Below, in pieces: positions 10,259-64,000 of a DNA stretch of 64,000 bases. Position numbers and translations under genes: made by a program. The first letter of the stretch is position 1. Each line of letters begins with the position of its first letter. The DNA is from Escherichia phage vB_EcoM_011D4. A model generated the notes under the pieces. That model was not told the DNA's origin and searched no databases. It worked only from the letters and a program-made list of their open reading frames with translations. The stretch lies in sequence record MT478991.1; one strand, given 5' to 3'.

Positions 10259-10291
10259 AATATATTCCTCAATGTTTTTCTTGATGGGAGT

Positions 10292-10327: not shown

Positions 10328-10540
10328 TTAATTTTTACCCGCTCGTGCATTAATACGCATTTTCTGCATAGCCATGATCTGGTTTACTGCTTCTTCTTTA
10401 CGTTCTTGCGTGATAACGTGACCAGATTCCGCAAACTCTCCAGAGACCTCTTCCACGATCTCGCGAACTTGAGAACGTCCAAAGATGCGGTTTCCTTCGT
10501 AGCTCATAAACTCTGTTACTACTTGCTCGATAGATTTCAT
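10328..10540 (-). CDS. Hypothetical protein (70 aa)
   Basis: ORF flanked by early promoters on both sides. Confidence 0.45.
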   Translation of the reverse strand: MKSIEQVVTEFMSYEGNRIFGRSQVREIVEEVSGEFAESGHVITQERKEEAVNQIMAMQKMRINARAGKN

Positions 10541-10569
10541 GTGATTCTCCTTTCGTTTGGTATGGGAGT

Positions 10570-11384: not shown

Positions 11385-11415
11385 CTTTGATTCTCCTTTT
11401 GTTTGGGATGGGTGT

Positions 11416-18275: not shown

Positions 18276-18471
18276 TTTGATTCTCCTTTGTTACTAGATA
18301 ACGAATTTGGTCTTGCATTGCGATCAGTTCCCAGCGTGCTACTTTCATCATGGAAACTGACTCTTTGAACATAATATTAGCTTTTTCCTTCTCCCCTGTC
18401 AAGTAGATTTCTGCAATTTTTTCACAAAATTTTTGAGTTTCTTCATTCTTAAACGGTTTCATATAAGTCAA
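18268..18471 (-). CDS. Hypothetical protein (67 aa)
   Basis: ORF downstream of the early promoter at 18493. Confidence 0.4.
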   Translation of the reverse strand: MTYMKPFKNEETQKFCEKIAEIYLTGEKEKANIMFKESVSMMKVARWELIAMQDQIRYLVTKENQNA

Positions 18472-21905: not shown

Positions 21906-21919
21906 ATCAAAAACCTCGC

Positions 21920-22084: not shown

Positions 22085-22085
22085 A

Positions 22086-22253
22086 TCAAAAACCTCGCTT
22101 AGTGAAATGCTCGATCATTTTATTGATACATGCAGCTTCACTATCGCCGGACACGTTCCAGCCGTATAGACCCCATCTAAAGCACATGGTAACAGTTCCA
22201 TTGTGACGGCTTACCGTCACATCATTAAATTCTGGGATACTTCGCATAATCAT
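22086..22253 (-). CDS. Small ORF (55 aa)
   Basis: MIMRSIPEF...AACINKMIEHFTKRGF; GAGGA RBS after the dda stop; C-terminus parallels 21920..22084. Confidence 0.3.
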   Translation of the reverse strand: MIMRSIPEFNDVTVSRHNGTVTMCFRWGLYGWNVSGDSEAACINKMIEHFTKRGF

Positions 22254-23655: not shown

Positions 23656-23969
23656 TATCCTAAAATCCTCACCTTGCGAACACAGATAGTATTGAGTTCT
23701 CGCCGTACCCGTTCTTTTTCATATTCAGGAATTTTATATTCGATACCATCCCGAACAATTTCAGAAGACCGGATTATGCCAAATTTTCGTTTAGGTACAA
23801 CCTTGTATTTCGGTTCACCCGCCAATAGACTCTCACAATAATCTATCTGATCACACATTGACGCTAACGCAGCATCATGTGTTTCGCAAGTTAGGACGCG
23901 ACCCTTCGCGTCCACTGAGTATTGAAAGAATCCGTCTTTATCACGATAACATACAGCAAATACATGCAT
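23655..23969 (-). CDS. Hypothetical protein (104 aa)
   Basis: ORF whose stop overlaps the dda start. Confidence 0.4.
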   Translation of the reverse strand: MHVFAVCYRDKDGFFQYSVDAKGRVLTCETHDAALASMCDQIDYCESLLAGEPKYKVVPKRKFGIIRSSEIVRDGIEYKIPEYEKERVRRELNTICVRKVRILG

Positions 23970-24724: not shown

Positions 24725-24753
24725 AATTGATTCTCCTTAGTTGGTATGTGTGT

Positions 24754-24782
24754 ATTATTGTCTATCTGGTTTGTGCTGTCAA
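24754..24782 (-). promoter_or_regulatory. Sigma70-like early promoter (TTGACA-N17-AATAAT)
   Basis: - strand TTGACAgcacaaaccagatagacAATAATacacacat followed by the CTAAGGAGAATCAATT-ATG leader. Confidence 0.45.
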
Positions 24783-29960: not shown

Positions 29961-30274
29961 ACATAGCCCCCAACTACACGCATAACAAAGGTCTTGAGTT
30001 TATACCAGAAAGTTTCTTTTTTCAACTTTTCTTCTGCTTCTTTGATCTGCGCGGTTAACGCCTTAATGACGTGTGGATATACCACATCACGATCTGACGG
30101 CGTGGAGTAGTCGACCACAATACCTTTAGTGTCTGGATCGTATTCAACATTATGAATATAGACAATATGATGTTCTCCCTCTTCATCAACAATTATCAGT
30201 TCCTGAATAACTGTCTTCATTGCTTCTTGAATCAAGCCGTGTGCTTCTTCTAAACTTGTTGGTTTCTTATCCAT
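29957..30274 (-). CDS. gp40-like protein (positional)
   Basis: 105 aa between uvsX and gp41 as for T4 gene 40; hydrophobic C-terminus; stop overlaps the gp41 start. Confidence 0.45.
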   Translation of the reverse strand: MDKKPTSLEEAHGLIQEAMKTVIQELIIVDEEGEHHIVYIHNVEYDPDTKGIVVDYSTPSDRDVVYPHVIKALTAQIKEAEEKLKKETFWYKLKTFVMRVVGGYV

Positions 30275-30290
30275 AATATAATCCTCTCTA

Positions 30291-44883: not shown

Positions 44884-45170
44884 TAGAAACCCTTACGTCG
44901 TGCTTTCTGGCATTTCTTGATCATTTTATCAGAAATTTCGCGCTTAGGTGCAATCTCTTTCACACCGAAAGCACTAATGCCAAATTCAGAGAGAATATAT
45001 TCAACTAACAATTCACGCACACGCGCTTTACCGATATTCACGCCGTTATTTTTCAGATATGTCTGGCCTTCGACTTGCATCAGATCTAAATCTGCGTCGG
45101 TAATATTGATTTCTTCCATGCGCCCAAATCGAGAATAAACCATGTGTGCGATTGCATTGTGTACTAACAT
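44883..45170 (-). CDS. Hypothetical protein (about 95 aa)
   Basis: Track start is TTG; first ATG at 45170; stop overlaps the start of the P-loop gene. Confidence 0.4.
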   Translation of the reverse strand: MLVHNAIAHMVYSRFGRMEEINITDADLDLMQVEGQTYLKNNGVNIGKARVRELLVEYILSEFGISAFGVKEIAPKREISDKMIKKCQKARRKGF

Positions 45171-45191
45171 AATATATTCCTCACTCAAGAA

Positions 45192-47927: not shown

Positions 47928-48437
47928 TCAAATAATTTTCACTGGAATACTATTAACAATCTTGTATTGTACTTGATTGTCAGACCCCCGCCACGGCTTC
48001 TTCGTTGGCATATCTTTAATATAACGCCCATCGATGAACATGTCAACTGATTCTACAATTTTTCTTTGCTCATCATTCAATTGGTCAAGGGTATAACCAG
48101 ACCATAGCCAAATATCTTTATTTGGCATCCATGATTTTACTTCATCGATGATCCGCTGTACACCCTTTAAATTGCGTTTATACAGTGGATCGCCACCTAA
48201 GAATGTTAGCCCCTGAATAAAATCAGGTCTAAGCAGATCCAGAATCAATCCCATTGTATCATCGGTGAATGGTTCCCCGTTCTTAGGATTGAGTAGGCTA
48301 GCATTAAAGCAACCATCACATGCGTGTGAACATCCGGTAACGTAAAGGGAGACTCTCACTCCCTCACCGTTAACCATATCACAATCTTTAATATCGGCAT
48401 AGCGTAGTTTGCCGTATGTATCAGAACTCATATTCAA
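47928..48437 (-). CDS. nrdG: Anaerobic ribonucleotide reductase activating protein NrdG (radical SAM)
   Basis: 169 aa; radical-SAM cluster CSHACDGC (Cx3Cx2C); GGDPL; adjacent to nrdD as in T4. Confidence 0.85.
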   Translation of the reverse strand: MNMSSDTYGKLRYADIKDCDMVNGEGVRVSLYVTGCSHACDGCFNASLLNPKNGEPFTDDTMGLILDLLRPDFIQGLTFLGGDPLYKRNLKGVQRIIDEVKSWMPNKDIWLWSGYTLDQLNDEQRKIVESVDMFIDGRYIKDMPTKKPWRGSDNQVQYKIVNSIPVKII

Positions 48438-48573
48438 TTACCCCGAACTCGTTTACAATCTGCGCTTTATAGTAACCACCGCGAGATGCTAATAGATAAG
48501 CTGGGCTTAGGTATTCGTATTCACGGATTTCTACTTGTGCGTTTTCAGTTTCCCAAATCAGTAAAGTCCACAT
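48421..48573 (-). CDS. Small ORF (about 50 aa)
   Basis: ATG at 48573 with AGGAGAATCAAAT leader just downstream of the promoter at 48616. Confidence 0.3.
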   Translation of the reverse strand: MWTLLIWETENAQVEIREYEYLSPAYLLASRGGYYKAQIVNEFGVIEYEF

Positions 48574-48615
48574 ATTTGATTCTCCTGTAAAGTTGTATCT
48601 CGTCTTGATGAATAT

Positions 48616-48644
48616 AGTATAGGGGATCTCGCGATCCCCGTCAA
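48616..48644 (-). promoter_or_regulatory. Sigma70-like early promoter (TTGACG-N17-TATACT) with spacer palindrome
   Basis: - strand TTGACGgggatcgcgagatccccTATACT; spacer is the palindrome GGGGATC-TCGC-GATCCCC. Confidence 0.55.
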
Positions 48645-51743: not shown

Positions 51744-52238
51744 TTATTTTACCAATTCTGCTAATTCTTTTTCTTTAGCTTCTAGTTCAGCTTTAAGCTG
51801 TTTAATCTCTTGTCGCTTCTTATTAGCGGCTTCCTGCTTACTATTTCGGATAACCTGATCTAGATACAATTCCCAATCCTGAATATTTTTGATAATGTAG
51901 CCGTCAACATTAATTGGTCGGAGATTCAGTACAGCTTCCAGTTTAGTTGCAAAAACTTTAATTGCTGGGGTGAAGTATTCATATTCGTTATCTTCAAACC
52001 AATAACCTAGACTTGCATTCTCAATACGAAGATGAAGTTTAAGATCAAGGTCTTTATCATCGGTATATAGGTCTTTTACACACCCCATAGAATTAACCAC
52101 AACTTTAAAACGAATTTTATCTACACCACCAAAAACATCTTCAAGAATATCAGCAATTGAGCTATTAGCGCAAGATTGGTCGCTGAATGCGTCAAGGTTT
52201 TCTTTAGTTACAGTATACCAAACATCTTGTACCCACAT
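51744..52238 (-). CDS. Hypothetical protein (164 aa), C-terminal coiled coil
   Basis: ORF with a K/E-rich C-terminal coiled coil. Confidence 0.45.
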   Translation of the reverse strand: MWVQDVWYTVTKENLDAFSDQSCANSSIADILEDVFGGVDKIRFKVVVNSMGCVKDLYTDDKDLDLKLHLRIENASLGYWFEDNEYEYFTPAIKVFATKLEAVLNLRPINVDGYIIKNIQDWELYLDQVIRNSKQEAANKKRQEIKQLKAELEAKEKELAELVK

Positions 52239-52268
52239 AATATAATCCTCTCGTTGTTAAGTGGGAGT

Positions 52269-52296: not shown

Positions 52297-53471
52297 GCAC
52301 TAACTTTTTTCTTTACTGCTTTCACCTTCTGGCGAATTGCTCGAATCTCTTCGATCTCTTTTTCAGTCTCTTTAACAATTTCTTTGCGATTCTGAATATC
52401 TGTATCTAGATTATCATCAAGTTTAGGCAGCATGTCAATCAAGAACTTTTTAAAGTCTTTCAGGTTTCGGATAACAGCACCTTCACCCATTACCGCCACG
52501 CCTACACCATCCGGCAGGTCGCCAAACAGTTTAACCAGTTCAGACAGATGATCATGATCTTCTAGTGCTTCTTCCGGTTCAGATGGCAGTCCAACAAAGT
52601 AATAACGTTCATCATTGCTGATCAGGTGATACCAGCAAAGCCCAAAAGATTTAGGAGTATATTCTACACCACCAACTTCAACTGCGTCAACACTTCCGAA
52701 AGAATCTACTTTAGTTACCTTAAATCCATGTTCCAGCGTTTTAATAATTTCAATAACATGACTAGATACGGTTTCAGTATTAAACCAATGAGGCAAATTA
52801 TGTGGATTTGGCTTGTATCGTTCGCCTACTTTAAATCTCTGACCACGCTCTTGCATACGGACATATTCAACTCGCGTGATTTCCGCGAAGTATTCAAATT
52901 CGCTACCGTCAAACAAGCAATTCCATTGATCACAAAAACGATCCGCCTTGACGGTTTCACCTTTCGCGGTGATCATGGTAGCCGATCCATGAAATTCTTC
53001 TTCAACCAAAAAGCCATATTCGACAAAATCAACAAGTTTCATGGCTTCTTTATGCTCTGGGTCATGCTCTCCCCAGAATCGCTTAAATTCTTGCAAACCT
53101 TCTGGGGTAAACGAATAACATTTACCTTTTTCAAAGTAAGTCGGCATTGCATCCTCTTTCTTGTTCATCGCTTCGTATGCCTCTTTTGAGATACGTTTAA
53201 AGTATTTGCGCTCATTGTGCATAATCATAGTAGACCAATAATAAACGATATCCTCAGCGGAATAAACTACATCTCCAGCTTCAATAGTAATAACATGACC
53301 GTGGTCATCTTTTTCTAATACTTTAAAGCCCTTTTCTACGATTTCAGCAACCCGAATATGACCACGGCGCGAAGCATCGGTCAGAATAATTGAATAGCGA
53401 GAAAAGTCTAGAAACTCATCTTTACCACCTTCACGGAATGCATAGTAATGACCTTCAAAGAATTTAGCCAT
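52293..53471 (-). CDS. Hypothetical protein; module family (3 tandem modules)
   Basis: Three internal repeats each with G(H/K)(Y/C)Y.F...GFKV(L/T)...G.V...(I/V)E.G...ER(K/Y)YF; acidic/coiled-coil tail. Confidence 0.5.
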   Translation of the reverse strand: MAKFFEGHYYAFREGGKDEFLDFSRYSIILTDASRRGHIRVAEIVEKGFKVLEKDDHGHVITIEAGDVVYSAEDIVYYWSTMIMHNERKYFKRISKEAYEAMNKKEDAMPTYFEKGKCYSFTPEGLQEFKRFWGEHDPEHKEAMKLVDFVEYGFLVEEEFHGSATMITAKGETVKADRFCDQWNCLFDGSEFEYFAEITRVEYVRMQERGQRFKVGERYKPNPHNLPHWFNTETVSSHVIEIIKTLEHGFKVTKVDSFGSVDAVEVGGVEYTPKSFGLCWYHLISNDERYYFVGLPSEPEEALEDHDHLSELVKLFGDLPDGVGVAVMGEGAVIRNLKDFKKFLIDMLPKLDDNLDTDIQNRKEIVKETEKEIEEIRAIRQKVKAVKKKVSA

Positions 53472-53502
53472 AATATAATCCTCTCGTTGTTTAGATGGGA
53501 GT

Positions 53503-53531: not shown

Positions 53532-54112
53532 GCGTTAAATGACTTTTGGATCTCTTTCAGTTCAGCTACTTTATCTGCGCTATATTTTGCTTGATGTTCC
53601 ATGCGCTTAATCTCACCTTTGATATAGGTTTCTAGCTTAGGTTTATTCTCAATCAAAAAATCTTTCAGGTCATCGGCATTTTTAAAGTATAGCTGATTAT
53701 CAACGCTAAAATCTTCCAGCGTCAATGATACCAAAGAAGACTTCGCAAACAAGTTAATCAGATCTTCCAGCGATTCTTCTTTCTTAACTGGCTTCATTTC
53801 TTCAAACTGCTTTTTAGTGATACGCTTAAAGTATTTGCGCTCGCTGGCATCAATCATGATTGATGCGCCCTCATAATCATGAGTTTCTACCAAATACACT
53901 TTACCCATAACATTAACAGTCAGAACTTTAAAGCCCTTGTGAAGCACACCATACAGGAACTTGTTATGTTGTGGATAGCGTTTAACAAATTCCTCTGCGG
54001 ACTCAGCATTACGGAAAGTGTAATAACGACCTCGTTCAAAAACAGCATCATTTGAAGACTTAGCCGGATACAATTTATACGTTTTCTGTACCATAATATA
54101 ATCCTCTATCAT
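53528..54112 (-). CDS. Hypothetical protein; module family (1 module)
   Basis: RGRYYTFRNAESAEEF...GFKVLTVNVMGKVYLVE...ASERKYFKRI. Confidence 0.5.
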   Translation of the reverse strand: MIEDYIMVQKTYKLYPAKSSNDAVFERGRYYTFRNAESAEEFVKRYPQHNKFLYGVLHKGFKVLTVNVMGKVYLVETHDYEGASIMIDASERKYFKRITKKQFEEMKPVKKEESLEDLINLFAKSSLVSLTLEDFSVDNQLYFKNADDLKDFLIENKPKLETYIKGEIKRMEHQAKYSADKVAELKEIQKSFNA

Positions 54113-54381
54113 TTCACTAATTGAACAGCACGGAACAGAATGCGCTCACACGGAAGCAGCATAAATTCCCAACGCGGATCAAAGTCTTTAGCGGTATACG
54201 TTTTCCCATCAACCGAGATTTCACTTACATAACCAACAGGTGACACTTTAAGAACAGTAAACCCATTCTTGATGACTTCGTAGGTATCTTTCACCCCTTC
54301 GTATTCATCATCTAAGAAGTCTTTATGTGCTTGCTCAGATTTAAAAACATAGGCCACACCGGATTTAAACATCTTACGCAT
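54109..54381 (-). CDS. Hypothetical protein; module family (1 module)
   Basis: ATG at 54381 with AAGGAGAATCAACA leader; SGVAYVFKSEQAHKDF...GFTVLKV...VSEISVDGKTY. Confidence 0.45.
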   Translation of the reverse strand: MRKMFKSGVAYVFKSEQAHKDFLDDEYEGVKDTYEVIKNGFTVLKVSPVGYVSEISVDGKTYTAKDFDPRWEFMLLPCERILFRAVQLVK

Positions 54382-54412
54382 TGTTGATTCTCCTTCTTGA
54401 TTAGATGGGAGT

Positions 54413-54441
54413 ATTTTACTACTCCCATTTCTTATTGTCAA
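54413..54441 (-). promoter_or_regulatory. Sigma70-like early promoter (TTGACA-N17-TAAAAT) inside GGGAGTA..TACTCCC palindrome
   Basis: - strand TTGACAataagaaatgggagtagTAAAATactccc directly after the gp49 stop. Confidence 0.6.
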
Positions 54442-56994: not shown

Positions 56995-57280
56995 GATTTA
57001 CCCCCAATTCATCAAGATTGTGTCGCAGCATTTCAGAGTATTTTTCTACTTCCTTAATCTTAGTGTGGATCTCCACGATCTCATCTTCACTATCAGAAAG
57101 TTTAATGGCAATAGCGGTACTGCTTTTACCCGCTTTCATAGTCTCTTTCAGTTCAACCAACAGGTCCGCGTGTTTCAGTAGCAGTTCTTCACGTCGAACA
57201 TAAGCGACGGTCAAAGCCTCATCAGCGATTTCTAAAGCATTTTCAGCGACACCAACAACCATTTTACGAGTAGACAGCAT
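56987..57280 (-). CDS. Hypothetical protein (97 aa)
   Basis: Compact - strand ORF; coiled-coil-like. Confidence 0.4.
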   Translation of the reverse strand: MLSTRKMVVGVAENALEIADEALTVAYVRREELLLKHADLLVELKETMKAGKSSTAIAIKLSDSEDEIVEIHTKIKEVEKYSEMLRHNLDELGVNHG

Positions 57281-57294
57281 AAATTCACCTCACA

Positions 57295-57603
57295 TTATTT
57301 CACGTTAACGCCGCCATCAATCCAGCCGACGCTATTTGGTTTAACAGTTTTACCATAGGATGCATACTTAATCAAGCATGGTTTAACATCATTATCAAAT
57401 CTTCCTAAGCGTACTCCCAAATCAGGAATATCCATGTAAGCGGCTTTATATCCCCATGTACAATATTCAGCATCAATCTCAACCGGACGGCCTTTAAAAG
57501 CATACACTACACCGTAACGGTCAACGATAACATAGCGATAGCCAGCCGGAAGATACACAGTTTCGCCGTAAACTTTAACTGGAGTAGCAGAAGAGATAAA
57601 CAT
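57295..57603 (-). CDS. Hypothetical protein (102 aa)
   Basis: First ORF after the promoter at 57638; GTGAGGAAT RBS. Confidence 0.4.
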   Translation of the reverse strand: MFISSATPVKVYGETVYLPAGYRYVIVDRYGVVYAFKGRPVEIDAEYCTWGYKAAYMDIPDLGVRLGRFDNDVKPCLIKYASYGKTVKPNSVGWIDGGVNVK

Positions 57604-57637
57604 AATATATTCCTCACATCGTTCATTTGATGCGGCT

Positions 57638-57666
57638 ATTATAGGATAACCGCATTTTCATGTCAA
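57638..57666 (-). promoter_or_regulatory. Sigma70-like early promoter (TTGACA-N17-TATAAT) with -10 inside an inverted repeat
   Basis: - strand TTGACAtgaaaatgcggttatccTATAATagccgc; GCGGTTA..TAGCCGC flanks the -10. Confidence 0.6.
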
Positions 57667-57672
57667 CAGTTT

Positions 57673-58035
57673 TTAAAAATCTTCTTCCGGTTTATATCGA
57701 CCGTCGTCTTCTTGTTTTGGGCTGAATCCGGTATGTTTGCGCGGCTTCGCTTCCGGTTTACCCGCAATCATCAAACCAAAACATTTCAGCCCCTTATAAC
57801 ACATAACAATATAAACTACTGTCCACGTTATAGGCCAGATGATTGCGGCAATACAAAATGCTCCTGTATCGACCTCTTTCGTGTCCTTATCGAATCTGGC
57901 ATACAAGCAGAATATAAGATACGAGATCATTGCACCCGTAGGCCAGATATAAAGCACATTAACAATATCTTGTGTTGTCACATTGTCCTCCTTACATGTC
58001 TTGCAGTGCGTAGAAGCATTTTTCTTCATAGTCAT
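57673..58035 (-). CDS. Predicted membrane protein (about 120 aa)
   Basis: Two hydrophobic helices (AMISYLIFCLYA, AAIIWPITWTVVYIVMCY); track start is TTG, ATG at 58035; overlaps the upstream gene's 3' end. Confidence 0.4.
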   Translation of the reverse strand: MTMKKNASTHCKTCKEDNVTTQDIVNVLYIWPTGAMISYLIFCLYARFDKDTKEVDTGAFCIAAIIWPITWTVVYIVMCYKGLKCFGLMIAGKPEAKPRKHTGFSPKQEDDGRYKPEEDF

Positions 58036-58270
58036 AGAAAATGTCAAAGTATGCTTTTTCTACATACTCGCCATTGATCCAAGCGGCAGTAACAATCAGG
58101 GTAGTCCAGTTAGATCCGCTCTCAACGGTAAAGGTTTTAATACCCAGCTTCACAGCAAGGTCACGCGCAAACTGGTCGCAACCACGGCAGGAAGTGATAT
58201 TGGAAGTTTTGATTTTGATGCCACCGCGAGTTTTAGAAATTTCTACTTTAGCGAAAGACAGGTTGCTCAT
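57992..58270 (-). CDS. Hypothetical protein (92 aa)
   Basis: ATG at 58270 with CTTAAGGAGAATCAAA leader; the track start lies upstream of the predicted transcription start. Confidence 0.4.
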   Translation of the reverse strand: MSNLSFAKVEISKTRGGIKIKTSNITSCRGCDQFARDLAVKLGIKTFTVESGSNWTTLIVTAAWINGEYVEKAYFDIFYDYEEKCFYALQDM

Positions 58271-58313
58271 TTTGATTCTCCTTAAGAAAAGTGTGTTTCG
58301 TTTTGATGTGTGT

Positions 58314-58342
58314 AGTATAGGGGATACGCGATCCCCTGTCAA
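58314..58342 (-). promoter_or_regulatory. Sigma70-like early promoter (TTGACA-N17-TATACT) with spacer palindrome
   Basis: - strand TTGACAggggatcgcgtatccccTATACT; spacer palindrome GGGGAT-CGCGT-ATCCCC as at 48616. Confidence 0.55.
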
Positions 58343-58357
58343 CAACTTTTTATGATT

Positions 58358-58678
58358 TTAGTGAATTAACTCTACACCAAAATGAGGCACAGAGAACGCC
58401 TTACGAAACACATATTCATCATGTTTAGGGATCGCCCCTAACCTCTCTATTTCGCTCGCCATAACGATAAACTGTTTATCTGGTGCATATGCCTTGTGTG
58501 CTTCAACAACGCACGGAAAACGCGTTTTAGAGAGTTCTGGATAGTTTTCTGAATCCAGAAGGACGATGAATACCCTATTACATTGATTGTAGAATCCTGT
58601 TTTTGATTTCATCAAGTTTTTTTCTATGTACATTTCGTGCAATCTTCCTTTCATGATTTCGTTGGTTCTTGTCTTCAC
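58358..58678 (-). CDS. Hypothetical protein; 5' end uncertain (overlaps upstream ORF by about 100 nt)
   Basis: Track start is GTG; internal ATGs at 58654, 58633 and 58612 lack strong RBS; possible frameshift partner of 58578..58916. Confidence 0.3.
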   Translation of the reverse strand: MKTRTNEIMKGRLHEMYIEKNLMKSKTGFYNQCNRVFIVLLDSENYPELSKTRFPCVVEAHKAYAPDKQFIVMASEIERLGAIPKHDEYVFRKAFSVPHFGVELIH

Positions 58679-58916
58679 AGTTTACCCACTCAACAAGATC
58701 TTTACCTAACTCGAAAGCCCATTCTCGGTCTTGCTTTACGTTTTGTAGGTATGGGCTTTCCGACACTCGACGAAGTGATCTTGTCGTAACAAGAATGATC
58801 CCAGGAATGGTCGGATGTTCTTTTCCATATACAATAGGACGCGAGTCACTATCAATACCTTGTAAGAAGGTGTATCCTGAATCACTTAGAATCATATACT
58901 TTTTCATTTCACACAT
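58578..58916 (-). CDS. Hypothetical protein (112 aa)
   Basis: ATG at 58916 overlaps the upstream stop; basic C-terminal tail overlaps the next ORF in another frame. Confidence 0.4.
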   Translation of the reverse strand: MCEMKKYMILSDSGYTFLQGIDSDSRPIVYGKEHPTIPGIILVTTRSLRRVSESPYLQNVKQDREWAFELGKDLVEWVNCEDKNQRNHERKIARNVHRKKLDEIKNRILQSM

Positions 58917-59173
58917 CACAGATTCCTCAACCAGTTATTAAAGCGAGCAAACCATGATGCTTTTCGTGCTTCTTTTACTTTATGTGCACGAAAACCACTG
59001 AAACACCATTCATAATCATCACCGAAACATGATTCAACAGGAACACCCGCATTTCGTAGTTCTCTGGTCTTTATCATGAATCCTTGACATAAGGGTCGAC
59101 CTTCAACAATGATAGGAAGTTTAACTTTTTCCATGAAATTATACCCAGCACGGTCAATAATTTCAATCTTCAT
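58916..59173 (-). CDS. Hypothetical protein; small paralog family B
   Basis: MKIEIIDRAGYNFMEKVKLPIIVEGR...AGVPVE; paralog of 59192..59389 and 61743..61964. Confidence 0.45.
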   Translation of the reverse strand: MKIEIIDRAGYNFMEKVKLPIIVEGRPLCQGFMIKTRELRNAGVPVESCFGDDYEWCFSGFRAHKVKEARKASWFARFNNWLRNL

Positions 59174-59191
59174 AATATAATCCTCAATTAG

Positions 59192-59389
59192 TTATACCGC
59201 CCAGGCTTCATTTGCACGAAAACACCATTCATACTCAGGAAAATAACCTTTAATTGGCACGCCAGCTTTTTGTAGTTCCTGCGTTTCTACAAGATAATCA
59301 AGCCCATAACGACGACCTTCCACGATGATAGGAAGTTTAACGCCATTCATGAAAGAAAATCCACCATCATCAATAATTTCAATTTTCAT
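59192..59389 (-). CDS. Hypothetical protein; small paralog family B
   Basis: MKIEIIDDGGFSFMNGVKLPIIVEGR...AGVPIK; tandem to 58916..59173. Confidence 0.45.
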   Translation of the reverse strand: MKIEIIDDGGFSFMNGVKLPIIVEGRRYGLDYLVETQELQKAGVPIKGYFPEYEWCFRANEAWAV

Positions 59390-59633
59390 TTACATTGTCT
59401 CCATAGATCTTTCCAGCAATATCAATTTCACCAGCGCGAACATCTAGGATAAGATGCGGTAGGTGTATGCAGTTTTCCCACCCTACGCGCTTCATTTCTT
59501 CTACGGTAACGTAAGCCCACCCGTTCGCTGTAATAAAGTCTACTTCAACCTTGAGAGGAAAGCAAGACTTTTCTATGTCTTCGAATCCGACAATATGTTT
59601 TGTTGTTGAATATGGAATATATCCGGTGATCAT
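59379..59633 (-). CDS. Hypothetical protein (84 aa)
   Basis: Compact - strand ORF. Confidence 0.4.
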   Translation of the reverse strand: MITGYIPYSTTKHIVGFEDIEKSCFPLKVEVDFITANGWAYVTVEEMKRVGWENCIHLPHLILDVRAGEIDIAGKIYGDNVNEN

Positions 59634-60064
59634 TTTGTGATCTCCTTATACTCAACACACCATAAGCGGGTAGCCCATGATAAACGCTCATAACGCTGGC
59701 AGAAATCGGACCATAGATATTGTGTACCGTCTTGCATAGTTGAAATATGCGTTTTCTCTCCTACTTTCACGAAAGAAGTATTCGATTTTGTGATCTCGAC
59801 AGGAGTATATCCGAAAGCTGGTTCCAAGTCAACATCTGAACTAAATGCCAATTTAACAGAATTTGTTTTTCTGACCGCTGTCCGGTTTCCTTCTGGGTAT
59901 AGCACAGCAGGTTTAGCGCCTAAGCGGATAAACTCAGTATTTTTAATGAACAGAATATCATGATAACCGTCATATTCCGACACTTCCATAGTAACAGGAA
60001 AATCGATATGTGTTAAACCTGGTAGATCTCGCATGTCATGAAATGTAGCCATCAACTTTTTCAT
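59630..60064 (-). CDS. Hypothetical protein (144 aa)
   Basis: GAGGAA RBS; C-terminal half (PAFGYTPVEITKSNTSFVKVGEKTHISTM...YLWSDFC) is duplicated in the next gene. Confidence 0.45.
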   Translation of the reverse strand: MKKLMATFHDMRDLPGLTHIDFPVTMEVSEYDGYHDILFIKNTEFIRLGAKPAVLYPEGNRTAVRKTNSVKLAFSSDVDLEPAFGYTPVEITKSNTSFVKVGEKTHISTMQDGTQYLWSDFCQRYERLSWATRLWCVEYKEITK

Positions 60065-60114
60065 TTTGTATTCCTCACTCTTCTGTAATTACTTCATATT
60101 CAATTTTCCATACA

Positions 60115-60294
60115 TCAATCGCCCAGCTTAAAAAGCTCATACGATTTACAGAAAGATGACCAAATATACTGTTTTCCGTGCATCGTTGTTATGTGTGTAC
60201 GCTCGCCAACCTCAACGAAAGACATATTTGACTTTGTGATAACTATAGGAATGCGACCGAAAGCTGGCGGTATTACTGATTCGTTGGTCTTCAT
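60115..60294 (-). CDS. Hypothetical protein (59 aa); partial duplicate of 59630..60064
   Basis: PAFGRIPIVITKSNMSFVEVGERTHITTMHGKQYIWSSFC matches the neighbour's C-terminus; identical 16-nt RBS context ACAGAAGAGTGAGGAA. Confidence 0.35.
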   Translation of the reverse strand: MKTNESVIPPAFGRIPIVITKSNMSFVEVGERTHITTMHGKQYIWSSFCKSYELFKLGD

Positions 60295-60304
60295 TCTATG
60301 TTCC

Positions 60305-60502
60305 TCACTCTTCTGTTTCATTTCTTTTATATGGTACTATAACAGGATTAATACAGCAAGCACCAATTACGTTATGAGCACCACAATTTAAGCATTTATA
60401 ATCATGGAACTTATTAAGGAATCGCCCGAACTCATAACCGACTAGCGCCGCATGTACTTGAGTCTCGATCTCATCCATATCAGCCAATGTTTTAACCCTC
60501 AT
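60305..60502 (-). CDS. Small Cys-rich protein (about 65 aa)
   Basis: ATG at 60502 with TGAGGA RBS; contains CLNCG...GACC, a likely Zn-binding cluster. Confidence 0.4.
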   Translation of the reverse strand: MRVKTLADMDEIETQVHAALVGYEFGRFLNKFHDYKCLNCGAHNVIGACCINPVIVPYKRNETEE

Positions 60503-60512
60503 ATTATAATCC

Positions 60513-60803
60513 TCAAATGGTAGTTTTGCGAAGATGGTCATTACATGCTTTTAATGCATCAGTCGCGGTGTCATAGCGAGTATTATCATAGCACCAGTAA
60601 CCATCTGTCAACTGATAAATTAATCCATCCTTTTTAGCTTCGATGAAAGATAACTCTTTGAAAGTTTCTACTTTCTTTACGGATACTCCACGGTCACGGC
60701 GCTCATAGAGTTTAGCTAAAATGCGTTCAGCCTGTTCCTCTTTATCACCAGACAGATCCCAAATAATGTTGCGGATATGTTTGATTAATTGTTCAGCGGT
60801 CAT
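60513..60803 (-). CDS. Hypothetical protein (96 aa)
   Basis: First ORF after the promoter at 60833; CTAAGGAGAATCAAAG leader. Confidence 0.4.
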   Translation of the reverse strand: MTAEQLIKHIRNIIWDLSGDKEEQAERILAKLYERRDRGVSVKKVETFKELSFIEAKKDGLIYQLTDGYWCYDNTRYDTATDALKACNDHLRKTTI

Positions 60804-60832
60804 CTTTGATTCTCCTTAGTTGTTATGTGTGC

Positions 60833-60860
60833 ATTATAGCACTATGATTTTCATTGTCAA
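60833..60860 (-). promoter_or_regulatory. Sigma70-like early promoter (TTGACA-N16-TATAAT)
   Basis: - strand TTGACAatgaaaatcatagtgcTATAATgcacacat. Confidence 0.6.
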
Positions 60861-60863
60861 CAC

Positions 60864-60899
60864 CCAAAAAACAAAAAAGGCTATCCCGAAGGATAGCCC
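60864..60899 (-). terminator. Rho-independent terminator downstream of the glycine-rich gene
   Basis: - strand GGCTATCC-TTCG-GGATAGCC followed by TTTTTTGTTTTTT, 7 nt after the stop at 60906. Confidence 0.65.
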
Positions 60900-60905
60900 A
60901 TAAAA

Positions 60906-61688
60906 TTACACGCGAGCACCGTAGATCGTGCCTACTTTATCCCAGCGAGGGGCATTGCCAGTAACAGCCTTACCAGCCGCACCGCCATTATATTCCGATC
61001 CCTGTCCACGGATATTACATTTACCACCAGCACCGCCAGCATCACCACCGTTACCGCCATTATATACACCGTTGACAGACCCTTTACCTGGCGCGGAAAT
61101 AGTACCAGCAGTAGCACCCCGTTCCATATTAGCAGACCCACCAGCAGCACCAAATGGACGACCGCCACCACCACCAAAGGTTAATTTCATTTGTGGCATA
61201 GGAGAATAATACCCACCACCGCCACCACCACCACCGCCACCACAAATAGCGCCGTTATTTGTGATGCGTAAGCGTGTGCCTATACCGTTGTTAATTGCAT
61301 TACCACCAGCACCACCAGCGGAGTTATTGCCACCATTACCACCACGCCCCCAAACATGAACACCGGAGTTAATGATCAATGTTACATATTCATTTGTTAA
61401 CGAGCTAGGGAAGTCAAGACAAGGAACGCCAGTAGATTGGGAAACAATATTACCAGTGATAGTAATTACTACCGGAGTAGATCCCTGTGCTTTCATCCAG
61501 TTAATAAGCGTATCTTTATTGTAACTATTACTAGCGCCAATGCTATAATGAATCTCTTTAGAGCGTCCGACCATTGCCGACATATACGCCGGACGACCTA
61601 AGCGAACAGCTTGCATTGCGGCGCTCATCCACCGTTGACCAGTCTCGGACACAGCAGATGATCCTACCCATCCAGAAGATATTGCCAT
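60906..61688 (-). CDS. 38: Glycine-rich protein resembling T2-type gp38 tail-fibre adhesin
   Basis: 260 aa; N-terminus GWVGSSAVSETGQRWMS resembles the gp38 attachment domain as recalled; C-terminal half has repeated glycine-rich motifs (GRGGNGG, a run of ten Gly, FGGGGGRPFG, GGNGGDAGGAGG); TGAGGA RBS. Confidence 0.5.
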   Translation of the reverse strand: MAISSGWVGSSAVSETGQRWMSAAMQAVRLGRPAYMSAMVGRSKEIHYSIGASNSYNKDTLINWMKAQGSTPVVITITGNIVSQSTGVPCLDFPSSLTNEYVTLIINSGVHVWGRGGNGGNNSAGGAGGNAINNGIGTRLRITNNGAICGGGGGGGGGGYYSPMPQMKLTFGGGGGRPFGAAGGSANMERGATAGTISAPGKGSVNGVYNGGNGGDAGGAGGKCNIRGQGSEYNGGAAGKAVTGNAPRWDKVGTIYGARV

Positions 61689-61699
61689 AAAGTTTCCTC

Positions 61700-61724
61700 A
61701 CAAGAAAAGCCCCATTTAAGGGGC
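61700..61724 (-). terminator. Hairpin plus T-run upstream of the glycine-rich gene
   Basis: - strand GCCCC-TTAAAT-GGGGC followed by TTTTCTT. Confidence 0.45.
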
Positions 61725-61742
61725 ATTGATTAATAATATTAC

Positions 61743-61964
61743 TTAGATGACCTCTGCTTCTCCATTCAGGAAGAAAGACCAAGTTTTGTTTGGGTAACGA
61801 AGCGCCCATGATTCAGCAGTTTTAACACCAGCTTCGAACAATTGACGGCTGGTCACTTTAGCCATACCATCTTCGATGGCAACGTTTTCAATAATCATCG
61901 GGTACTTAGCTCCACGCATGAAACCGAAACCAGCGGAAGATTTGATAATTTTAACAGTTGCCAT
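61743..61964 (-). CDS. Hypothetical protein; small paralog family B
   Basis: MATVKIIKSSAGFGFMRGAKYPMIIEN...EAGVK aligns with the 58916/59192 pair; CTAGGAGAATCAAAA leader. Confidence 0.45.
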   Translation of the reverse strand: MATVKIIKSSAGFGFMRGAKYPMIIENVAIEDGMAKVTSRQLFEAGVKTAESWALRYPNKTWSFFLNGEAEVI

Positions 61965-62005
61965 TTTTGATTCTCCTAGAAAGTGTATCTCGTTTCGATG
62001 GGTGT

Positions 62006-62034
62006 ATTATGCAATGACACCGGATCGCTGTCAA
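62006..62034 (-). promoter_or_regulatory. Sigma70-like early promoter (TTGACA-N17-CATAAT)
   Basis: - strand TTGACAgcgatccggtgtcattgCATAATacacccatc; -10/+1 region nearly identical to the promoter at 11416. Confidence 0.55.
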
Positions 62035-62052
62035 CACTTTCTAAGAAAAAAT

Positions 62053-62337
62053 TTAAATTAATCGAATATAGCCCAGAATTTCAGCGCCTTTAGCCAGTCC
62101 TAAAACTTCCCATTCAAGGTCGCCGTAGTCATAATTTGCAACCATCAACTGACCATTTTTCATGCAGCAATCATGAGAGAAAATTTGCCCCGCATAAACT
62201 ACGATAGTAATAAACTTTCCTGATTCTGGCGGTGTGGAAGACAAAGCGACCATATGACCATTCAGCTTAGTCACCAGTGATGGAACAATAAAATTCGGGC
62301 TTATCTGAATACAGTTAAATTCGTTTGTGTCTTTCAT
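62053..62337 (-). CDS. Hypothetical protein (94 aa)
   Basis: Compact - strand ORF. Confidence 0.4.
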   Translation of the reverse strand: MKDTNEFNCIQISPNFIVPSLVTKLNGHMVALSSTPPESGKFITIVVYAGQIFSHDCCMKNGQLMVANYDYGDLEWEVLGLAKGAEILGYIRLI

Positions 62338-62684
62338 GCCAGACCTCGCAAAACACTAATAGCATAATCATGCTGGTTATTCATAATATCAATTGCATTG
62401 TGATAACGAGCTAAACCATCAAGGATAAATTCTTGTTTATCCTGTTTCAGTTTGGTATCACGCGCAGCCATAAGAGCATCAAGAACAGGTCCAAAGTGAT
62501 TATCTAATTCATCTTCGGTTGCAATGTTTCCTATTGCCTCGTCGATCCGTGATTCTAATGCTTGCTTTTCGTTGATCACTTGCTGGGTATATTCCAACAC
62601 ATCAAGAATATCGCGGGTAACGTCGCCATGATAAGGTATTCCCGCGTGAATATGATCAATTAATCGCTGAATATCAATGTTCAA
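62334..62684 (-). CDS. Hypothetical protein (116 aa)
   Basis: Compact - strand ORF; stop overlaps the next start. Confidence 0.4.
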   Translation of the reverse strand: MNIDIQRLIDHIHAGIPYHGDVTRDILDVLEYTQQVINEKQALESRIDEAIGNIATEDELDNHFGPVLDALMAARDTKLKQDKQEFILDGLARYHNAIDIMNNQHDYAISVLRGLA

Positions 62685-63019
62685 TTGTAACCCTCCTCTG
62701 AAAGTACATCCCAGATCGTTGCGTCAAGGTGCATTAAATTCCACATAATAGAGTCATAACTACCGAAGCCAGAAGTAAAAATTACATCACACTGACGATA
62801 GGTCTTATGAAAATCGGTAGCTGTCTCTGCATCAATCGGCATATCGTCACCGGAAAGCACCAGACATTTAAGAATCATAACCCTGTTAGCCGTTGGCGCT
62901 TGCTTAGTCTTTTCAGCATATTTTTCGATGATCCGTTTTGCCTTTTCTTCTTTGATACGTCCAGACCAAATCCGGTTTCTATATTGATTCATAATAATTT
63001 CAATCACATCATTTTGCAT
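62681..63019 (-). CDS. Hypothetical protein (112 aa)
   Basis: Compact - strand ORF. Confidence 0.4.
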   Translation of the reverse strand: MQNDVIEIIMNQYRNRIWSGRIKEEKAKRIIEKYAEKTKQAPTANRVMILKCLVLSGDDMPIDAETATDFHKTYRQCDVIFTSGFGSYDSIMWNLMHLDATIWDVLSEEGYN

Positions 63020-63218
63020 TCTTCACGGTCTCCATAATTGTTTTGTAAGCCAGTTTAAGATGATCACCGAAAAACTTTGCGGTGTTACCCTTCGGATCGC
63101 GGAGCATGGTTTCTACGATCTCATCGGCAGTAACAATTTCTCCTTTCTTTGCTGCATGTTCTACCATATACTTCAAAGTTTCTTCGGAAGCAAGTGCTGC
63201 CGCTACTGGATTAATCAT
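63009..63218 (-). CDS. Hypothetical protein (69 aa)
   Basis: First ORF after the promoter at 63249; CAAAGGAGAATCAAAA leader. Confidence 0.4.
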   Translation of the reverse strand: MINPVAAALASEETLKYMVEHAAKKGEIVTADEIVETMLRDPKGNTAKFFGDHLKLAYKTIMETVKNAK

Positions 63219-63248
63219 TTTTGATTCTCCTTTGTTGTCGATGTGTGC

Positions 63249-63277
63249 ATTATGCTATACACTATTCCGGTTGTCAA
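63249..63277 (-). promoter_or_regulatory. Sigma70-like early promoter (TTGACA-N17-CATAAT)
   Basis: - strand TTGACAaccggaatagtgtatagCATAATgcacacatc. Confidence 0.55.
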
Positions 63278-63280
63278 CAC

Positions 63281-63313
63281 CTAAAAACGAAAAAGCCACC
63301 CTTTAGGATGGCT
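63281..63313 (-). terminator. Rho-independent terminator (possibly bidirectional)
   Basis: - strand AGCCATCC-TAAA-GGGTGGCT followed by TTTTTCGTTTTT; the + strand hairpin is followed by TTTTGATT. Confidence 0.55.
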
Positions 63314-63546
63314 TTTGATTATATTTTATTCACGTCCATTTGTATAGTAGTGTTTGAATCGACCTTTGCTAAACTAGTTAAACATAGTAACCAATTCACC
63401 ATCCCTTTCCAATGATAACCCTTCCTCGTCTTAGACGGGTCTTCCGATTCGGCAGTAATTGAACACGCGAAAGTATGAGGAAGCCAAATAGTTGTGTTAA
63501 TGCTAGTATTCTTTTACTTATGGTATGCATCCCACGGTGACTAACA

Positions 63547-63945
63547 TTAAGCCAGTCGAGTGAGTTTATAAATTGTTTTAAAGCATAGAGCTTTGATATC
63601 GTCTAAAACGCTCTGTAACGAGCTATCAACATCATTATAAATCTCACTAGCCATTTGCGTTAACTCTTGCAAATAGGCAATTTCGCTAATCTCCTTGCGG
63701 ACGACCAACTTTGGCTGATAACGACCAGTGATCCCAATATTGGTTTCAGTGAAATCATCAACCAATTCTTGCATTTCAAGATAGAACTCTTCTAGAGCCT
63801 TATGTTTTGCATAAGATCCAGGACCAGTTACCCCAAAATGCGCAGAATGCATATAAGTAACACTCATCAGACATTCACCGATAAAGCGGTCAACTTTATT
63901 AGCCTTTCCCTCTTCGGACGTCTTTAGAAAATCACTGAATTTCAT
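63547..63945 (-). CDS. Hypothetical protein (about 133 aa)
   Basis: ORF at the window edge; internal ATG at 63945 (MKFSDFLK...) preferred over the track start; followed by about 230 nt without an ORF of 60 aa or more. Confidence 0.4.
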   Translation of the reverse strand: MKFSDFLKTSEEGKANKVDRFIGECLMSVTYMHSAHFGVTGPGSYAKHKALEEFYLEMQELVDDFTETNIGITGRYQPKLVVRKEISEIAYLQELTQMASEIYNDVDSSLQSVLDDIKALCFKTIYKLTRLA

Positions 63946-64000
63946 GTTCTCGATTCTCCATATTATGCAACAGAACAAATTGTTGTGCGGCATATCCCCC

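What the first reader, a model, noticed from the sequence alone, without database searches (positions are those of the whole stretch)
58256..58275. Near-identical translation-initiation leader (AAGGAGAATCAAA-ATG) reused on at least ten genes
The same RBS-plus-spacer string precedes the ATG of genes starting at 11384, 18275, 24724, 48573, 54381, 58270, 60803, 61964 and 63218, with close variants elsewhere. Together with the shared promoters this indicates that whole promoter-leader cassettes have been copied in front of unrelated ORFs, a mechanism for recruiting new genes.
Basis: seen in the sequence. Interest (0 to 1): 0.45.

Follow-up and report, generated by a model that had tools for sequence, protein, structure and literature searches.

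The report
Reused early-gene leader, RB49-like phage
The repeated ribosome-binding leader is the downstream end of the already-described 'PeSL' promoter cassettes of RB49-like T4-type phages, and its 11 invariant bases look like a cutting site for the phage's own early-mRNA nuclease RegB, a link that still needs an experiment.

Summary
The window comes from an RB49-like (Krischvirus) T4-type coliphage. The full 16-mer is exact at only two sites. The 10-mer core GGAGAATCAA occurs nine times (0.14 expected), always on the early-gene strand, 2-4 nt before an ATG. Eight of the nine (plus one variant) lie 17-32 nt downstream of a sigma70-type promoter.

These units are the published PeSL (promoter-early stem-loop) cassettes of RB49/phi1 (Arbiol et al. 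2010), whose 3' end is defined as the Shine-Dalgarno plus start codon. I confirmed it with cassette+ORF indels and a promoter swap in relatives.

What is not in the PeSL papers is this. Conservation forms a sharp 11-nt block, GGAGAAUCAAA, starting exactly at GGAG. It is absent from internal and late genes. Across orthologs it is about as constrained as the promoter hexamers, while the leaders around it vary. It matches the T4 RegB/S1 cleavage consensus GGAGRAYARAA at 10 of 11 positions. RB49 encodes RegB, and regB's own start region is GGAUAAUAAAAUG.

Best reading: the block is both a ribosome-binding site and an early-mRNA shut-off site. The cassette finding itself is already known. The RegB link is a testable inference with probability of about 0.5.

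The parts
58337..58342 (-). -35 hexamer TTGACA of the cassette at the flagged site
58320..58336 (-). stem-loop GGGGATCGCGTATCCCC filling the -35/-10 spacer (the PeSL 'SL'); loop bases vary among orthologs while the stem is kept
   Evidence: sequence; ortholog variation
58314..58319 (-). -10 hexamer TATACT
58282..58313 (-). A/C-rich 5' leader (long type, ...CATCAAAACGAAACACACTTTTCTTAA); shared with 48573 and 61964
58271..58281 (-). 11-nt block GGAGAATCAAA: Shine-Dalgarno GGAG plus AAUCAAA; candidate RegB/S1 site (10/11 to GGAGRAYARAA)
   Evidence: consensus from PMC1702504
57992..58270 (-). 92-aa ORFan served by this cassette (ATG 58268-58270)
63220..63230 (-). 11-mer GGAGAATCAAA before 69-aa ORF 63009-63218; promoter -35 63272-63277, -10 63249-63254; terminator hairpin 63291-63316 upstream
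61966..61976 (-). 11-mer GGAGAATCAAA before 73-aa ORF 61743-61964; promoter -35 62029-62034, -10 62006-62011; long leader
60805..60815 (-). 11-mer GGAGAATCAAA before 96-aa ORF 60513-60803; promoter -35 60855-60860, -10 60833-60838; terminator hairpin 60878-60899; promoter module replaced in phages G2248/KMB43
54383..54393 (-). 11-mer GGAGAATCAAC before 90-aa ORF 54109-54381; promoter -35 54436-54441, -10 54413-54418 with stem-loop GGGAGTAgtaaaaTACTCCC over the -10
48575..48585 (-). 11-mer GGAGAATCAAA before 50-aa ORF 48421-48573 (DUF7170); promoter -35 48639-48644, -10 48616-48621, stem-loop in spacer; long leader
24726..24736 (-). 11-mer GGAGAATCAAT before 251-aa ORF 23969-24724 (srd ortholog); promoter -35 24777-24782, -10 24754-24759
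18276..18286 (-). 11-mer GGAGAATCAAA before 64-aa ORF 18081-18275; the only copy without its own promoter (second gene behind the promoter at 18521)
11386..11396 (-). 11-mer GGAGAATCAAA before 90-aa ORF 11112-11384; promoter -35 11439-11444, -10 11416-11421; terminator hairpin upstream
10540..10550 (-). variant GGAGAATCACA overlapping the ATG of 70-aa ORF 10328-10540; promoter -35 10593-10598, -10 10570-10575 with stem-loop over the -10

Best explanation
The string is the 3' (translation-initiation) module of PeSL cassettes, the composite early-promoter / stem-loop / Shine-Dalgarno units of RB49-like T4-type phages.

Shown here:
- Each copy lies 17-32 nt downstream of a near-consensus sigma70 promoter.
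- Each is at the end of a short, G-poor, A/C-rich leader.
- Each is in front of the first ORF of an early transcript, usually a small ORFan.
- The cassettes are recombination substrates that accompany ORF gain, loss and promoter swapping.

Inferred. The invariant part is an 11-nt block, GGAGAAUCAAA, with two functions. GGAG pairs with 16S rRNA as the ribosome-binding site. The whole block, single-stranded and bound by ribosomal protein S1, is also a target for the phage endoribonuclease RegB. RegB cuts between GG and AG and so destroys the ribosome-binding site of early messages once it accumulates. On this reading each cassette supplies a start signal, an upstream stop signal, a ribosome-binding site and a timed shut-off switch.
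For: 1. Identity of the genome and of the cassettes. The window is 94-99% identical to RB49-group phages. PMC2839356 describes PeSLs in RB49/phi1 with SD plus ATG at the 3' end and crossovers between the -10 and the SD/ATG.

2. Specificity. In RB49, GGAGAATCA occurs 27 times, all on the early strand. 26 copies are 10-13 nt before an ATG that opens an ORF, and 25 of those are behind a sigma70-type promoter.

3. Block shape. Among all GGAG initiation regions of RB49, the 40 promoter-proximal ones carry 0.7-1.1 bits per position at positions 5-11 (AATCAAA). Information is low upstream of G1 and drops at position 12. The 31 non-proximal ones on the same strand carry 0.1-0.4 bits, and late-strand ones carry none. 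Durand et al. define the RegB/S1 site in the same way: 11 nt, GGA at the 5' end, information needed 3' but not 5' of GGAG, consensus GGAGRAYARAA (PMC1702504). The block matches this at 10 of 11 positions.

4. Enzyme present. RB49 regB is a full-length Pfam REGB_T4 member (E = 1e-48) and lies about 3 kb beyond the window's syntenic right end. Copies at 95% identity or more occur in 58 phage records. regB's own start region is GGAUAAUAAAAUG, and a review reports that RB49's GGAU SD is cleaved in vivo (PMC3014915).

5. Constraint. Across 15 ortholog groups in up to 8 phages, variable columns were 0 of 60 in GGAG and 3 of 105 at positions 5-11. Comparison regions gave 0.088 (leader), 0.115 (codon position 3) and 0.224 (promoter spacer), with Fisher p = 0.055, 0.011 and 7e-7. 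One of the three changes is T7->C, which keeps the pyrimidine the consensus requires at position 7; the A6->G change departs from it. The G1-to-ATG distance varies within groups, so the block is anchored on GGAG and not on the ATG.

6. Accessibility. Predicted unpaired probability of the block is 0.56, against 0.41 for other GGAG initiation regions (p = 0.001). Leaders are 48% A, 24% C and 10% G.

7. Positive control. The same consensus scan on T4 bases 1-50,000 recovers the motB, motB.2 and 55.2-upstream sites named by Durand et al., with 5 hits on the early strand and 1 on the other.
Against: - Position 8 is C, whereas both T4 in-vivo sites and SELEX products strongly prefer A. RB49 has 22 GGAGAATCAAA and no GGAGAATAAAA. 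That looks as much like a founder effect or gene conversion among cassettes as like selection by S1, which is the same host protein for both phages.
- No cleavage data for these leaders were accessible. The RB49 RegB paper (PMC524301) and the RB49 genome paper (PMC135041) are not held.
- Predicted accessibility is only moderate (0.56).
- The contrast with the leader in orthologs is borderline (p = 0.055). The counts ignore phylogenetic non-independence and rest on three substitutions.
- The same 16-mer occurs as a single start site in at least 120 unrelated viral contigs, so it is also simply a good ribosome-binding site.
- regB is not inside the window, so its presence in this particular phage is inferred from relatives.
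Confidence: 0.55

Rival explanations
1. Descent only. The leader is identical because all cassettes descend from one ancestral promoter-leader unit. Frequent homologous recombination or gene conversion between copies keeps them alike. Beyond GGAG the sequence has no function of its own.
For: - Cassettes do recombine: there are cassette+ORF indels against RB49 and a promoter swap with its crossover between the -10 and the SD. Mini-circles with crossovers in this interval are published (PMC2839356).
- Sub-families share up to about 75 nt, including non-functional spacer.
- The invariant C at position 8 (22 vs 0 for A) is what a founder effect predicts.
Against: - Leaders and promoter spacers directly next to the block differ widely between copies and between orthologs, while the block does not.
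- Conversion tracts would not be expected to stop exactly at G1 and at position 11.
- All promoter and leader sub-types carry the same block, and the same promoter sub-types also occur with a different RBS.
Confidence: 0.25
2. Translation optimum only. AAUCAAA is an unstructured, A-rich SD-to-AUG spacer, possibly an S1-binding enhancer. It is selected for efficient stand-alone initiation on the 5'-proximal cistron of short early transcripts. RegB plays no part.
For: - The block is more accessible than other GGAG sites, and the leaders are G-poor.
- First cistrons cannot use translational coupling (established knowledge).
- The same 16-mer serves as a start site in many unrelated phages, including a repeated cassette in a 24% GC contig.
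Against: - The most heavily translated genes (late structural genes, plus strand) never use it: 0 of 27 copies in RB49.
- A spacer optimum should be anchored to the AUG, but the block is anchored to GGAG with a variable distance to the AUG.
- Many promoter-proximal genes use an unrelated leader, GAGGAWTATATTATG.
Confidence: 0.15
3. Chance or a generic Shine-Dalgarno. The similarity is no more than AAGGAG followed by A-rich sequence, as found before any well-expressed bacterial gene.
For: With one mismatch allowed, the 10-mer count is not above shuffles. Only two copies of the full 16-mer are exact.
Against: Nine exact 10-mers occur against 0.14 expected. RB49 has 27 exact 9-mers, all on one strand. 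Most genes in the window use GAGG/GAGGT instead.
Confidence: 0.01

Closest known systems
PeSL (promoter-early stem-loop) cassettes of RB49, phi1 and JSE (Arbiol et al. 2010, PMC2839356; Comeau et al. 2014, PMC4122927)
   Same: - Same phage group.
- Same anatomy: AT-rich upstream region, consensus -35 and -10, stem-loop in one of several positions, then SD and start codon.
- Same location in front of small ORFans.
- Same evidence of recombination between copies.
- The finding is the 3' end of these elements.
   Different: The papers treat the 3' end simply as 'a Shine-Dalgarno sequence and start codon' used for alignment. They do not mention RegB or mRNA at all. They do not describe the sharply bounded, constrained 11-nt block or its absence from internal and late genes.
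RegB/S1 target sites of phage T4 early mRNAs (Durand et al. 2006, PMC1702504; review PMC3014915)
   Same: - 11 nt, single-stranded, with GGA(G/U) at the 5' end followed by an A-rich 7-mer.
- Consensus GGAGRAYARAA, with the T4 in-vivo form GGAGAAUAAAA.
- Located mostly in the initiation regions of early genes and absent from late transcripts.
- Often abuts the AUG, as in T4 GGAGAAUAAAAUG and GGAUAAUAAAAUG.
   Different: - Position 8 is C instead of the strongly preferred A.
- The RB49-type block is nearly invariant (22 identical 11-mers), whereas T4 sites are degenerate.
- Cleavage of these particular leaders has not been shown.
- RB49 RegB is only about 42% identical to T4-type RegB.
Strong synthetic or phage leaders such as the T7 gene 10 leader AAGGAGATATACATATG (from my own knowledge, not tested here)
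   Same: AAGGAG followed by a 7-8 nt A/U-rich spacer before the ATG, used as a portable high-efficiency ribosome-binding site.
   Different: The T7 leader is a single site rather than a dispersed family. No nuclease target function is attached to it.

Membership tests
PeSL cassette | Near-consensus sigma70 -35 and -10 hexamers acting as an early promoter | tested here: met
   Eight of nine sites plus 10540 have TTGAC(A/G/T)-N16-17-(T/C/A)A(T/A)(A/G)(A/C)T. The top scanner hits score 11-12 of 12. This is sequence only; activity was not tested.
PeSL cassette | [quoted passage not shown] | tested here: met
   Upstream sequences such as aaaatcataaaaagttgTTGACA and ttttcgtttttaggtgTTGACA.
PeSL cassette | G/C-rich stem-loop upstream of, between, or overlapping the promoter boxes | tested here: met
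   58270 and 48573 have GGGGATCGCG(T/A)(A/G)ATCCCC in the spacer. 54381 and 10540 have GGGAGTA...TACTCCC over the -10. 63218, 60803 and 11384 have terminator hairpins upstream. Ortholog loops vary while the stems are kept.
PeSL cassette | Shine-Dalgarno and start codon of the downstream gene at the 3' end | tested here: met
   This is the finding itself. The definition is in PMC2839356.
PeSL cassette | Concentrated in hyperplastic regions among ORFans and associated with insertion, deletion or replacement between relatives | tested here: met
   - The downstream ORFs are unrelated and mostly have no family.
- There are cassette+ORF indels against RB49 and a promoter swap in G2248/KMB43.
- Only 17 of 63 relatives retain 80% or more of RB49's densest cassette region.
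PeSL cassette | Promoter and terminator activity in vivo; formation of mini-circles | not testable with these tools
   Needs reporter assays and inverse PCR, as in PMC2839356.
RegB/S1 cleavage site | Invariant GGA at the 5' end with G (or U) at position 4 | tested here: met
   GGAG is invariant in all copies and in all orthologs, with 0 of 60 columns variable.
RegB/S1 cleavage site | 11-nt site whose 3' seven bases fit RAYARAA | tested here: inconclusive
   Positions 5, 6, 7, 9, 10 and 11 fit; position 8 is C, not A (rules). C is excluded at positions 5, 6 and 9 in the published data, but for position 8 it is only disfavoured.
RegB/S1 cleavage site | No sequence requirement 5' of GGAG; information lies 3' | tested here: met
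   The information profile is low upstream of G1, high at positions 5-11, and drops at position 12 (requirement).
RegB/S1 cleavage site | Single-stranded target | tested here: inconclusive
   Predicted unpaired probability is 0.56. This is higher than the control value of 0.41 (p = 0.001) but not near 1. It is a prediction only.
RegB/S1 cleavage site | Located in intergenic initiation regions of early genes, not in late transcripts | tested here: met
   26 of 27 RB49 copies are at early-strand gene starts and none is on the late strand.
RegB/S1 cleavage site | The phage encodes RegB | tested here: met
   RB49 regB matches Pfam REGB_T4 at E = 1e-48, and 58 relatives carry it at 95% identity or more. 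It lies outside the window, so for this genome its presence is inferred from synteny.
RegB/S1 cleavage site | RegB- and S1-dependent cleavage between G2 and A3 | not testable with these tools
   Requires RNA end mapping or an in-vitro assay. No such data for these leaders were found in the held literature.

The most novel reading that the evidence does not exclude
PeSL cassettes are self-limiting expression units. Besides a promoter, an upstream terminator and a ribosome-binding site, each carries a built-in RegB/S1 cleavage site, with an RB49-type consensus GGAG-R-A-Y-C-A-A-A. Any ORF captured behind a cassette is therefore switched on immediately after infection and switched off again by RegB. 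This would explain how these phages can shuffle and acquire many foreign ORFans without disturbing the later programme. It would also explain why the 11-mer stays invariant while the rest of the cassette diversifies.
Probability: 0.5. Interest if true: 0.55.

Novelty: already known. Interest (0 to 1): 0.35.

Why it matters
The finding as stated (promoter-leader cassettes in front of unrelated ORFs as a route for gene recruitment) re-discovers the PeSL model from sequence alone. That is a useful validation but not new.

The added observation is that the 3' end of the cassette is a sharply bounded, constrained 11-mer matching the RegB/S1 consensus. If confirmed, it would link two separately studied aspects of T4-type phage biology: modular genome shuffling and post-transcriptional shut-off of early genes. 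It would also give about 25 natural substrates per genome for studying how a divergent RegB and host protein S1 choose their targets. That includes the effect of C rather than A at position 8.

Tried and rejected
- A one-mismatch search for the 10-mer was not above chance. Only the exact core is informative.
- The papers most likely to list RB49 RegB cleavage sites and RB49 early-gene signals (PMC524301, PMC135041) are not held.
- A literal search for the string in the literature returned only unrelated primers. No paper links PeSL and RegB.
- A T4 positive control based on start-site detection alone was too sparse: 19 sites, only motB.2 at 10/11 or better. A plain consensus scan worked better.
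- The scan of viral contigs for the 16-mer gave at least 120 contigs, almost all with a single copy. Apparent pairs about 176 nt apart are one start site plus an in-frame coding coincidence in a family of related contigs. This shows that the string alone is not diagnostic.
- I considered, by eye, extended pairing of AAUC with 16S rRNA bases 5' of the anti-SD. It would need a 3-nt bulge, so I rejected it.
- I considered the ORF next to regB as a second RegB, because phage JK32 annotates it so. The RB49 ortholog has no REGB_T4 hit.
- My first gene map mis-called a few plus-strand ORFs inside the minus-strand block. It was used only for orientation.
- MAFFT-based counts of variable 11-mer columns were inflated by an alignment shift. 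They were redone with each 11-mer anchored on its own GGAG.

Full report
WHAT THE WINDOW IS. Megablast places the window in the RB49 group of T4-type coliphages (genus Krischvirus). Identity is 98.7% to phage E26 over 57000-64000 and 94-97% to RB49, phi1, JSE, GEC-3S and about 60 other isolates. Bases 1-7200 carry late tail-fibre genes on the plus strand. From 7.2 kb to the end, the genes are early and replication genes on the minus strand.

CHECK OF THE OBSERVATION. The full 16-mer is exact at only two sites. The 10-mer GGAGAATCAA is exact at all nine cited gene starts, always 2-4 nt before the ATG and always on the minus strand. The chance expectation is 0.14, and none of 100 shuffles reached 9. 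Two one-off variants occur at 10540 and 63949. Allowing one mismatch removes the significance.

Most genes in the window use GAGG or GAGGT instead, so this is not the phage's generic ribosome-binding site. Sigma70-type promoters are strongly enriched on the minus strand: 58 against 7 on the plus strand and about 10 in shuffles. The best scanner hits coincide with these sites. Eight of the nine motif sites, plus 10540, lie 17-32 nt downstream of a -10 hexamer. Site 18275 has no promoter of its own.

ANATOMY. Aligning the 110 nt upstream of each site shows sub-families:
- 63218, 60803, 24724 and 11384 have a terminator hairpin and T-run, then gtgTTGACA, a non-conserved 16-17 nt spacer, (C/T/A)ATAAT, rCACmCAT and a short A/C leader.
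- 54381 and 10540 have a stem-loop GGGAGTA...TACTCCC lying over the -10.
- 58270 and 48573 have the stem-loop GGGGATCGCG..ATCCCC between -35 and -10 and a long leader. They are alike over about 75 nt.
- 61964 combines the long leader with the promoter core of the first group.
All of them end in GGAGAATCA. The same promoter types also occur with a different ribosome-binding leader. The units are therefore mosaics of promoter, leader and RBS modules.

WHAT IS ALREADY KNOWN. Arbiol et al. 2010 described these units in RB49 and phi1 as PeSLs. [quoted passage not shown] The authors showed promoter and terminator activity. They also showed recombination between PeSLs that produced mini-circles, with crossovers between the -10 and the SD or ATG (PMC2839356). 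A second paper extended the concept to other T4-like phages (PMC4122927).

INDEPENDENT TEST OF THE RECOMBINATION IDEA.
- The 39 ORFs behind these leaders in the window and RB49 are unrelated to one another, apart from window/RB49 orthologs and one paralog pair. Most have no Pfam family.
- Against RB49, the window lacks one cassette+ORF unit at about 10.32 kb and has an extra cassette+ORF at 10.60-10.96 kb. The other differences are homing-endonuclease or small-ORF indels and a variable tail-fibre segment.
- Six further relatives were compared over 47.5-64 kb. In G2248 and KMB43 the promoter module in front of the 60803 ORF is replaced by a different one (TTGACAcggggagaaatccccgTATAAT). It joins the same leader at CATACCAACTAAGGAGAATCAAA, and the adjacent gp38-like gene is deleted.
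- SSG23, JK32 and G2248 carry an extra ORF of about 2.1 kb just upstream of the 63277 cassette.
- RB49's densest cassette region (114-124 kb) is retained at 80% or more by only 17 of 63 relatives. For window 47.5-64 kb the figure is 53 of 69.

THE 11-NT BLOCK. In the complete RB49 genome, GGAGAATCA occurs 27 times, all on the early strand. 26 copies are 10-13 nt before an ATG that opens an ORF, and 25 of those lie behind a sigma70-type promoter.

To avoid circularity I collected every GGAG-containing start region regardless of what follows:
- The 40 promoter-proximal ones show 0.7-1.1 bits per position at positions 5-11 (AATCAAA). Information is low upstream of G1 and drops at position 12.
- The 31 non-proximal ones on the same strand show 0.1-0.4 bits, and only one of them has the motif.
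- The eight on the late strand show none.

Across 15 ortholog groups from up to eight phages, the variable-column fractions were as follows:
- -35 hexamer: 0.033
- -10 hexamer: 0.022
- Leader: 0.088
- Codon position 3: 0.115
- Upstream region: 0.189
- Promoter spacer: 0.224
- GGAG: 0 of 60
- Positions 5-11: 3 of 105 (0.029)
Fisher tests for positions 5-11 gave p = 0.055 against the leader, 0.011 against codon position 3 and 7e-7 against the spacer. The distance from G1 to the ATG varies within ortholog groups, so the block is anchored on GGAG rather than on the start codon. SD pairing does not need positions 5-11. The heavily translated late genes never use this block.

THE REGB LINK (INFERENCE). 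Durand et al. 2006 showed the following for T4 RegB, stimulated by ribosomal protein S1:
- It recognises an 11-nt single-stranded site with GGA at the 5' end.
- It needs sequence 3' but not 5' of GGAG.
- The consensus is GGAGRAYARAA, with GGAGAAUAAAA as the T4 in-vivo form.
- The sites lie mostly in the initiation regions of early genes.
(PMC1702504; review PMC3014915.)

GGAGAAUCAAA fits this consensus at 10 of 11 positions. The variants GGAGUAUCAAA and GGAGAACCAAA also respect the rules at positions 5 and 7. RB49 encodes a full-length REGB_T4 protein about 3 kb beyond the window's syntenic end. The gene is present at 95% identity or more in 58 records. regB's own start region reads GGAUAAUAAAAUG. 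That is a GGAU followed by the strict A-rich consensus, as Durand et al. require for GGAU sites. The review states that the RB49 GGAU SD is cut in vivo.

A consensus scan of T4 bases 1-50,000 recovers the motB, motB.2 and 55.2-upstream sites, with 5 hits on the early strand and 1 on the other. The same scan gives 30 against 7 in RB49 and 8 against 3 in the window, and most early-strand hits have C at position 8. The block is predicted to be more accessible than other GGAG sites (0.56 against 0.41, p = 0.001), within G-poor leaders.

CAVEATS.
- Position 8 is C where A is strongly preferred in T4. RB49 has no GGAGAATAAAA at all. A founder effect or gene conversion among cassettes could account for this.
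- The ortholog contrast with the leader is borderline and ignores shared ancestry.
- Accessibility is a prediction.
- No cleavage data for these leaders could be consulted.
- The same 16-mer occurs singly in at least 120 unrelated viral contigs, so it is also simply an efficient ribosome-binding site.
- regB is not in the window itself.

VERDICT. The cassette interpretation is correct in outline but already published as the PeSL model. My best explanation is that the block is the PeSL's ribosome-binding site and also a RegB/S1 shut-off site. The first half is near certain. The second half has a probability of about 0.5 and can be tested directly by RNA end mapping in a regB mutant.

Noticed in passing
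window minus strand, e.g. 59171-59185, 57601-57615, 54092-54106, 53469-53483, 52236-52250, 45168-45182, 30272-30286, 10256-10270, 9175-9189: There is a second recurrent leader, GAGGAWTATATTATG. It occurs 9 times in the window and 14 times in RB49, always on the early strand. Unlike the GGAG type, it is anchored on the ATG and occurs both behind promoters and inside operons. Its A+U-rich block abutting the AUG loosely resembles T4 RegA translational-repressor operators, and regA lies within the window's syntenic span. This is resemblance only.
   Followed up: partly
window 60086-60321: A 68-aa ORF (60115-60321) is present only in the window, E26 and Makalu003. It is flanked by a 16-nt direct repeat, ACAGAAGAGTGAGGAA (starting at 60316 and 60086, minus strand). 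The repeat contains the SD of two successive genes. This suggests ORF gain or loss by recombination between shared non-PeSL ribosome-binding leaders.
   Followed up: partly
window 21663-22253: The window has three small ORFs where RB49 has two. The extra 54-aa ORF (21920-22084) shares about 45 nt of upstream sequence and a related C-terminal coding segment with its neighbour. This looks like a local partial duplication or insertion.
   Followed up: partly
window 60827-61743: The gp38-like adhesin gene (60906-61688) lies between two type-A cassettes. It is missing from phages G2248 and KMB43, where the downstream ORF has acquired a different promoter module.
   Followed up: yes
window 63321-63540: SSG23, JK32 and G2248 carry an extra ORF of about 2.1 kb (about 715 aa, hypothetical) at this point, immediately upstream of the terminator hairpin of the 63277 cassette.
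   Followed up: partly
window ~42240, ~50829, ~55238: There are homing-endonuclease indels relative to relatives. The RB49 HNH gene p040 is absent from the window. JSE has an endonuclease that splits nrdD. KMB43 has one next to dam.
   Followed up: no
window, minus strand throughout 7.2-64 kb: There are 58 sigma70-like -35/-10 pairs on the early strand, against 7 on the other strand and about 10 in shuffles. Many lie inside coding regions, for example 17907, 15949 and 38249. The RB49 record also annotates hypothetical early promoters inside genes 41, 43 and 46.
   Followed up: no
L108 (IMGVR_UViG contig, 24% GC), minus strand 4867, 1845, 603: An unrelated AT-rich phage contig carries three copies of an approximately 85-nt near-identical upstream block ending in the same AAGGAGAATCAAAATG. 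This is an independent case of a reused promoter-leader unit.
   Followed up: no
L003 1983-2318 (RB49 p095) and L009 9877-10215 (JK32): JK32 annotates the ORF upstream of regB as 'Endoribonuclease RegB', but the RB49 ortholog has no REGB_T4 Pfam hit. This ORF and regB lie behind a cassette whose leader is the variant GGAGTATTAAAATG.
   Followed up: partly
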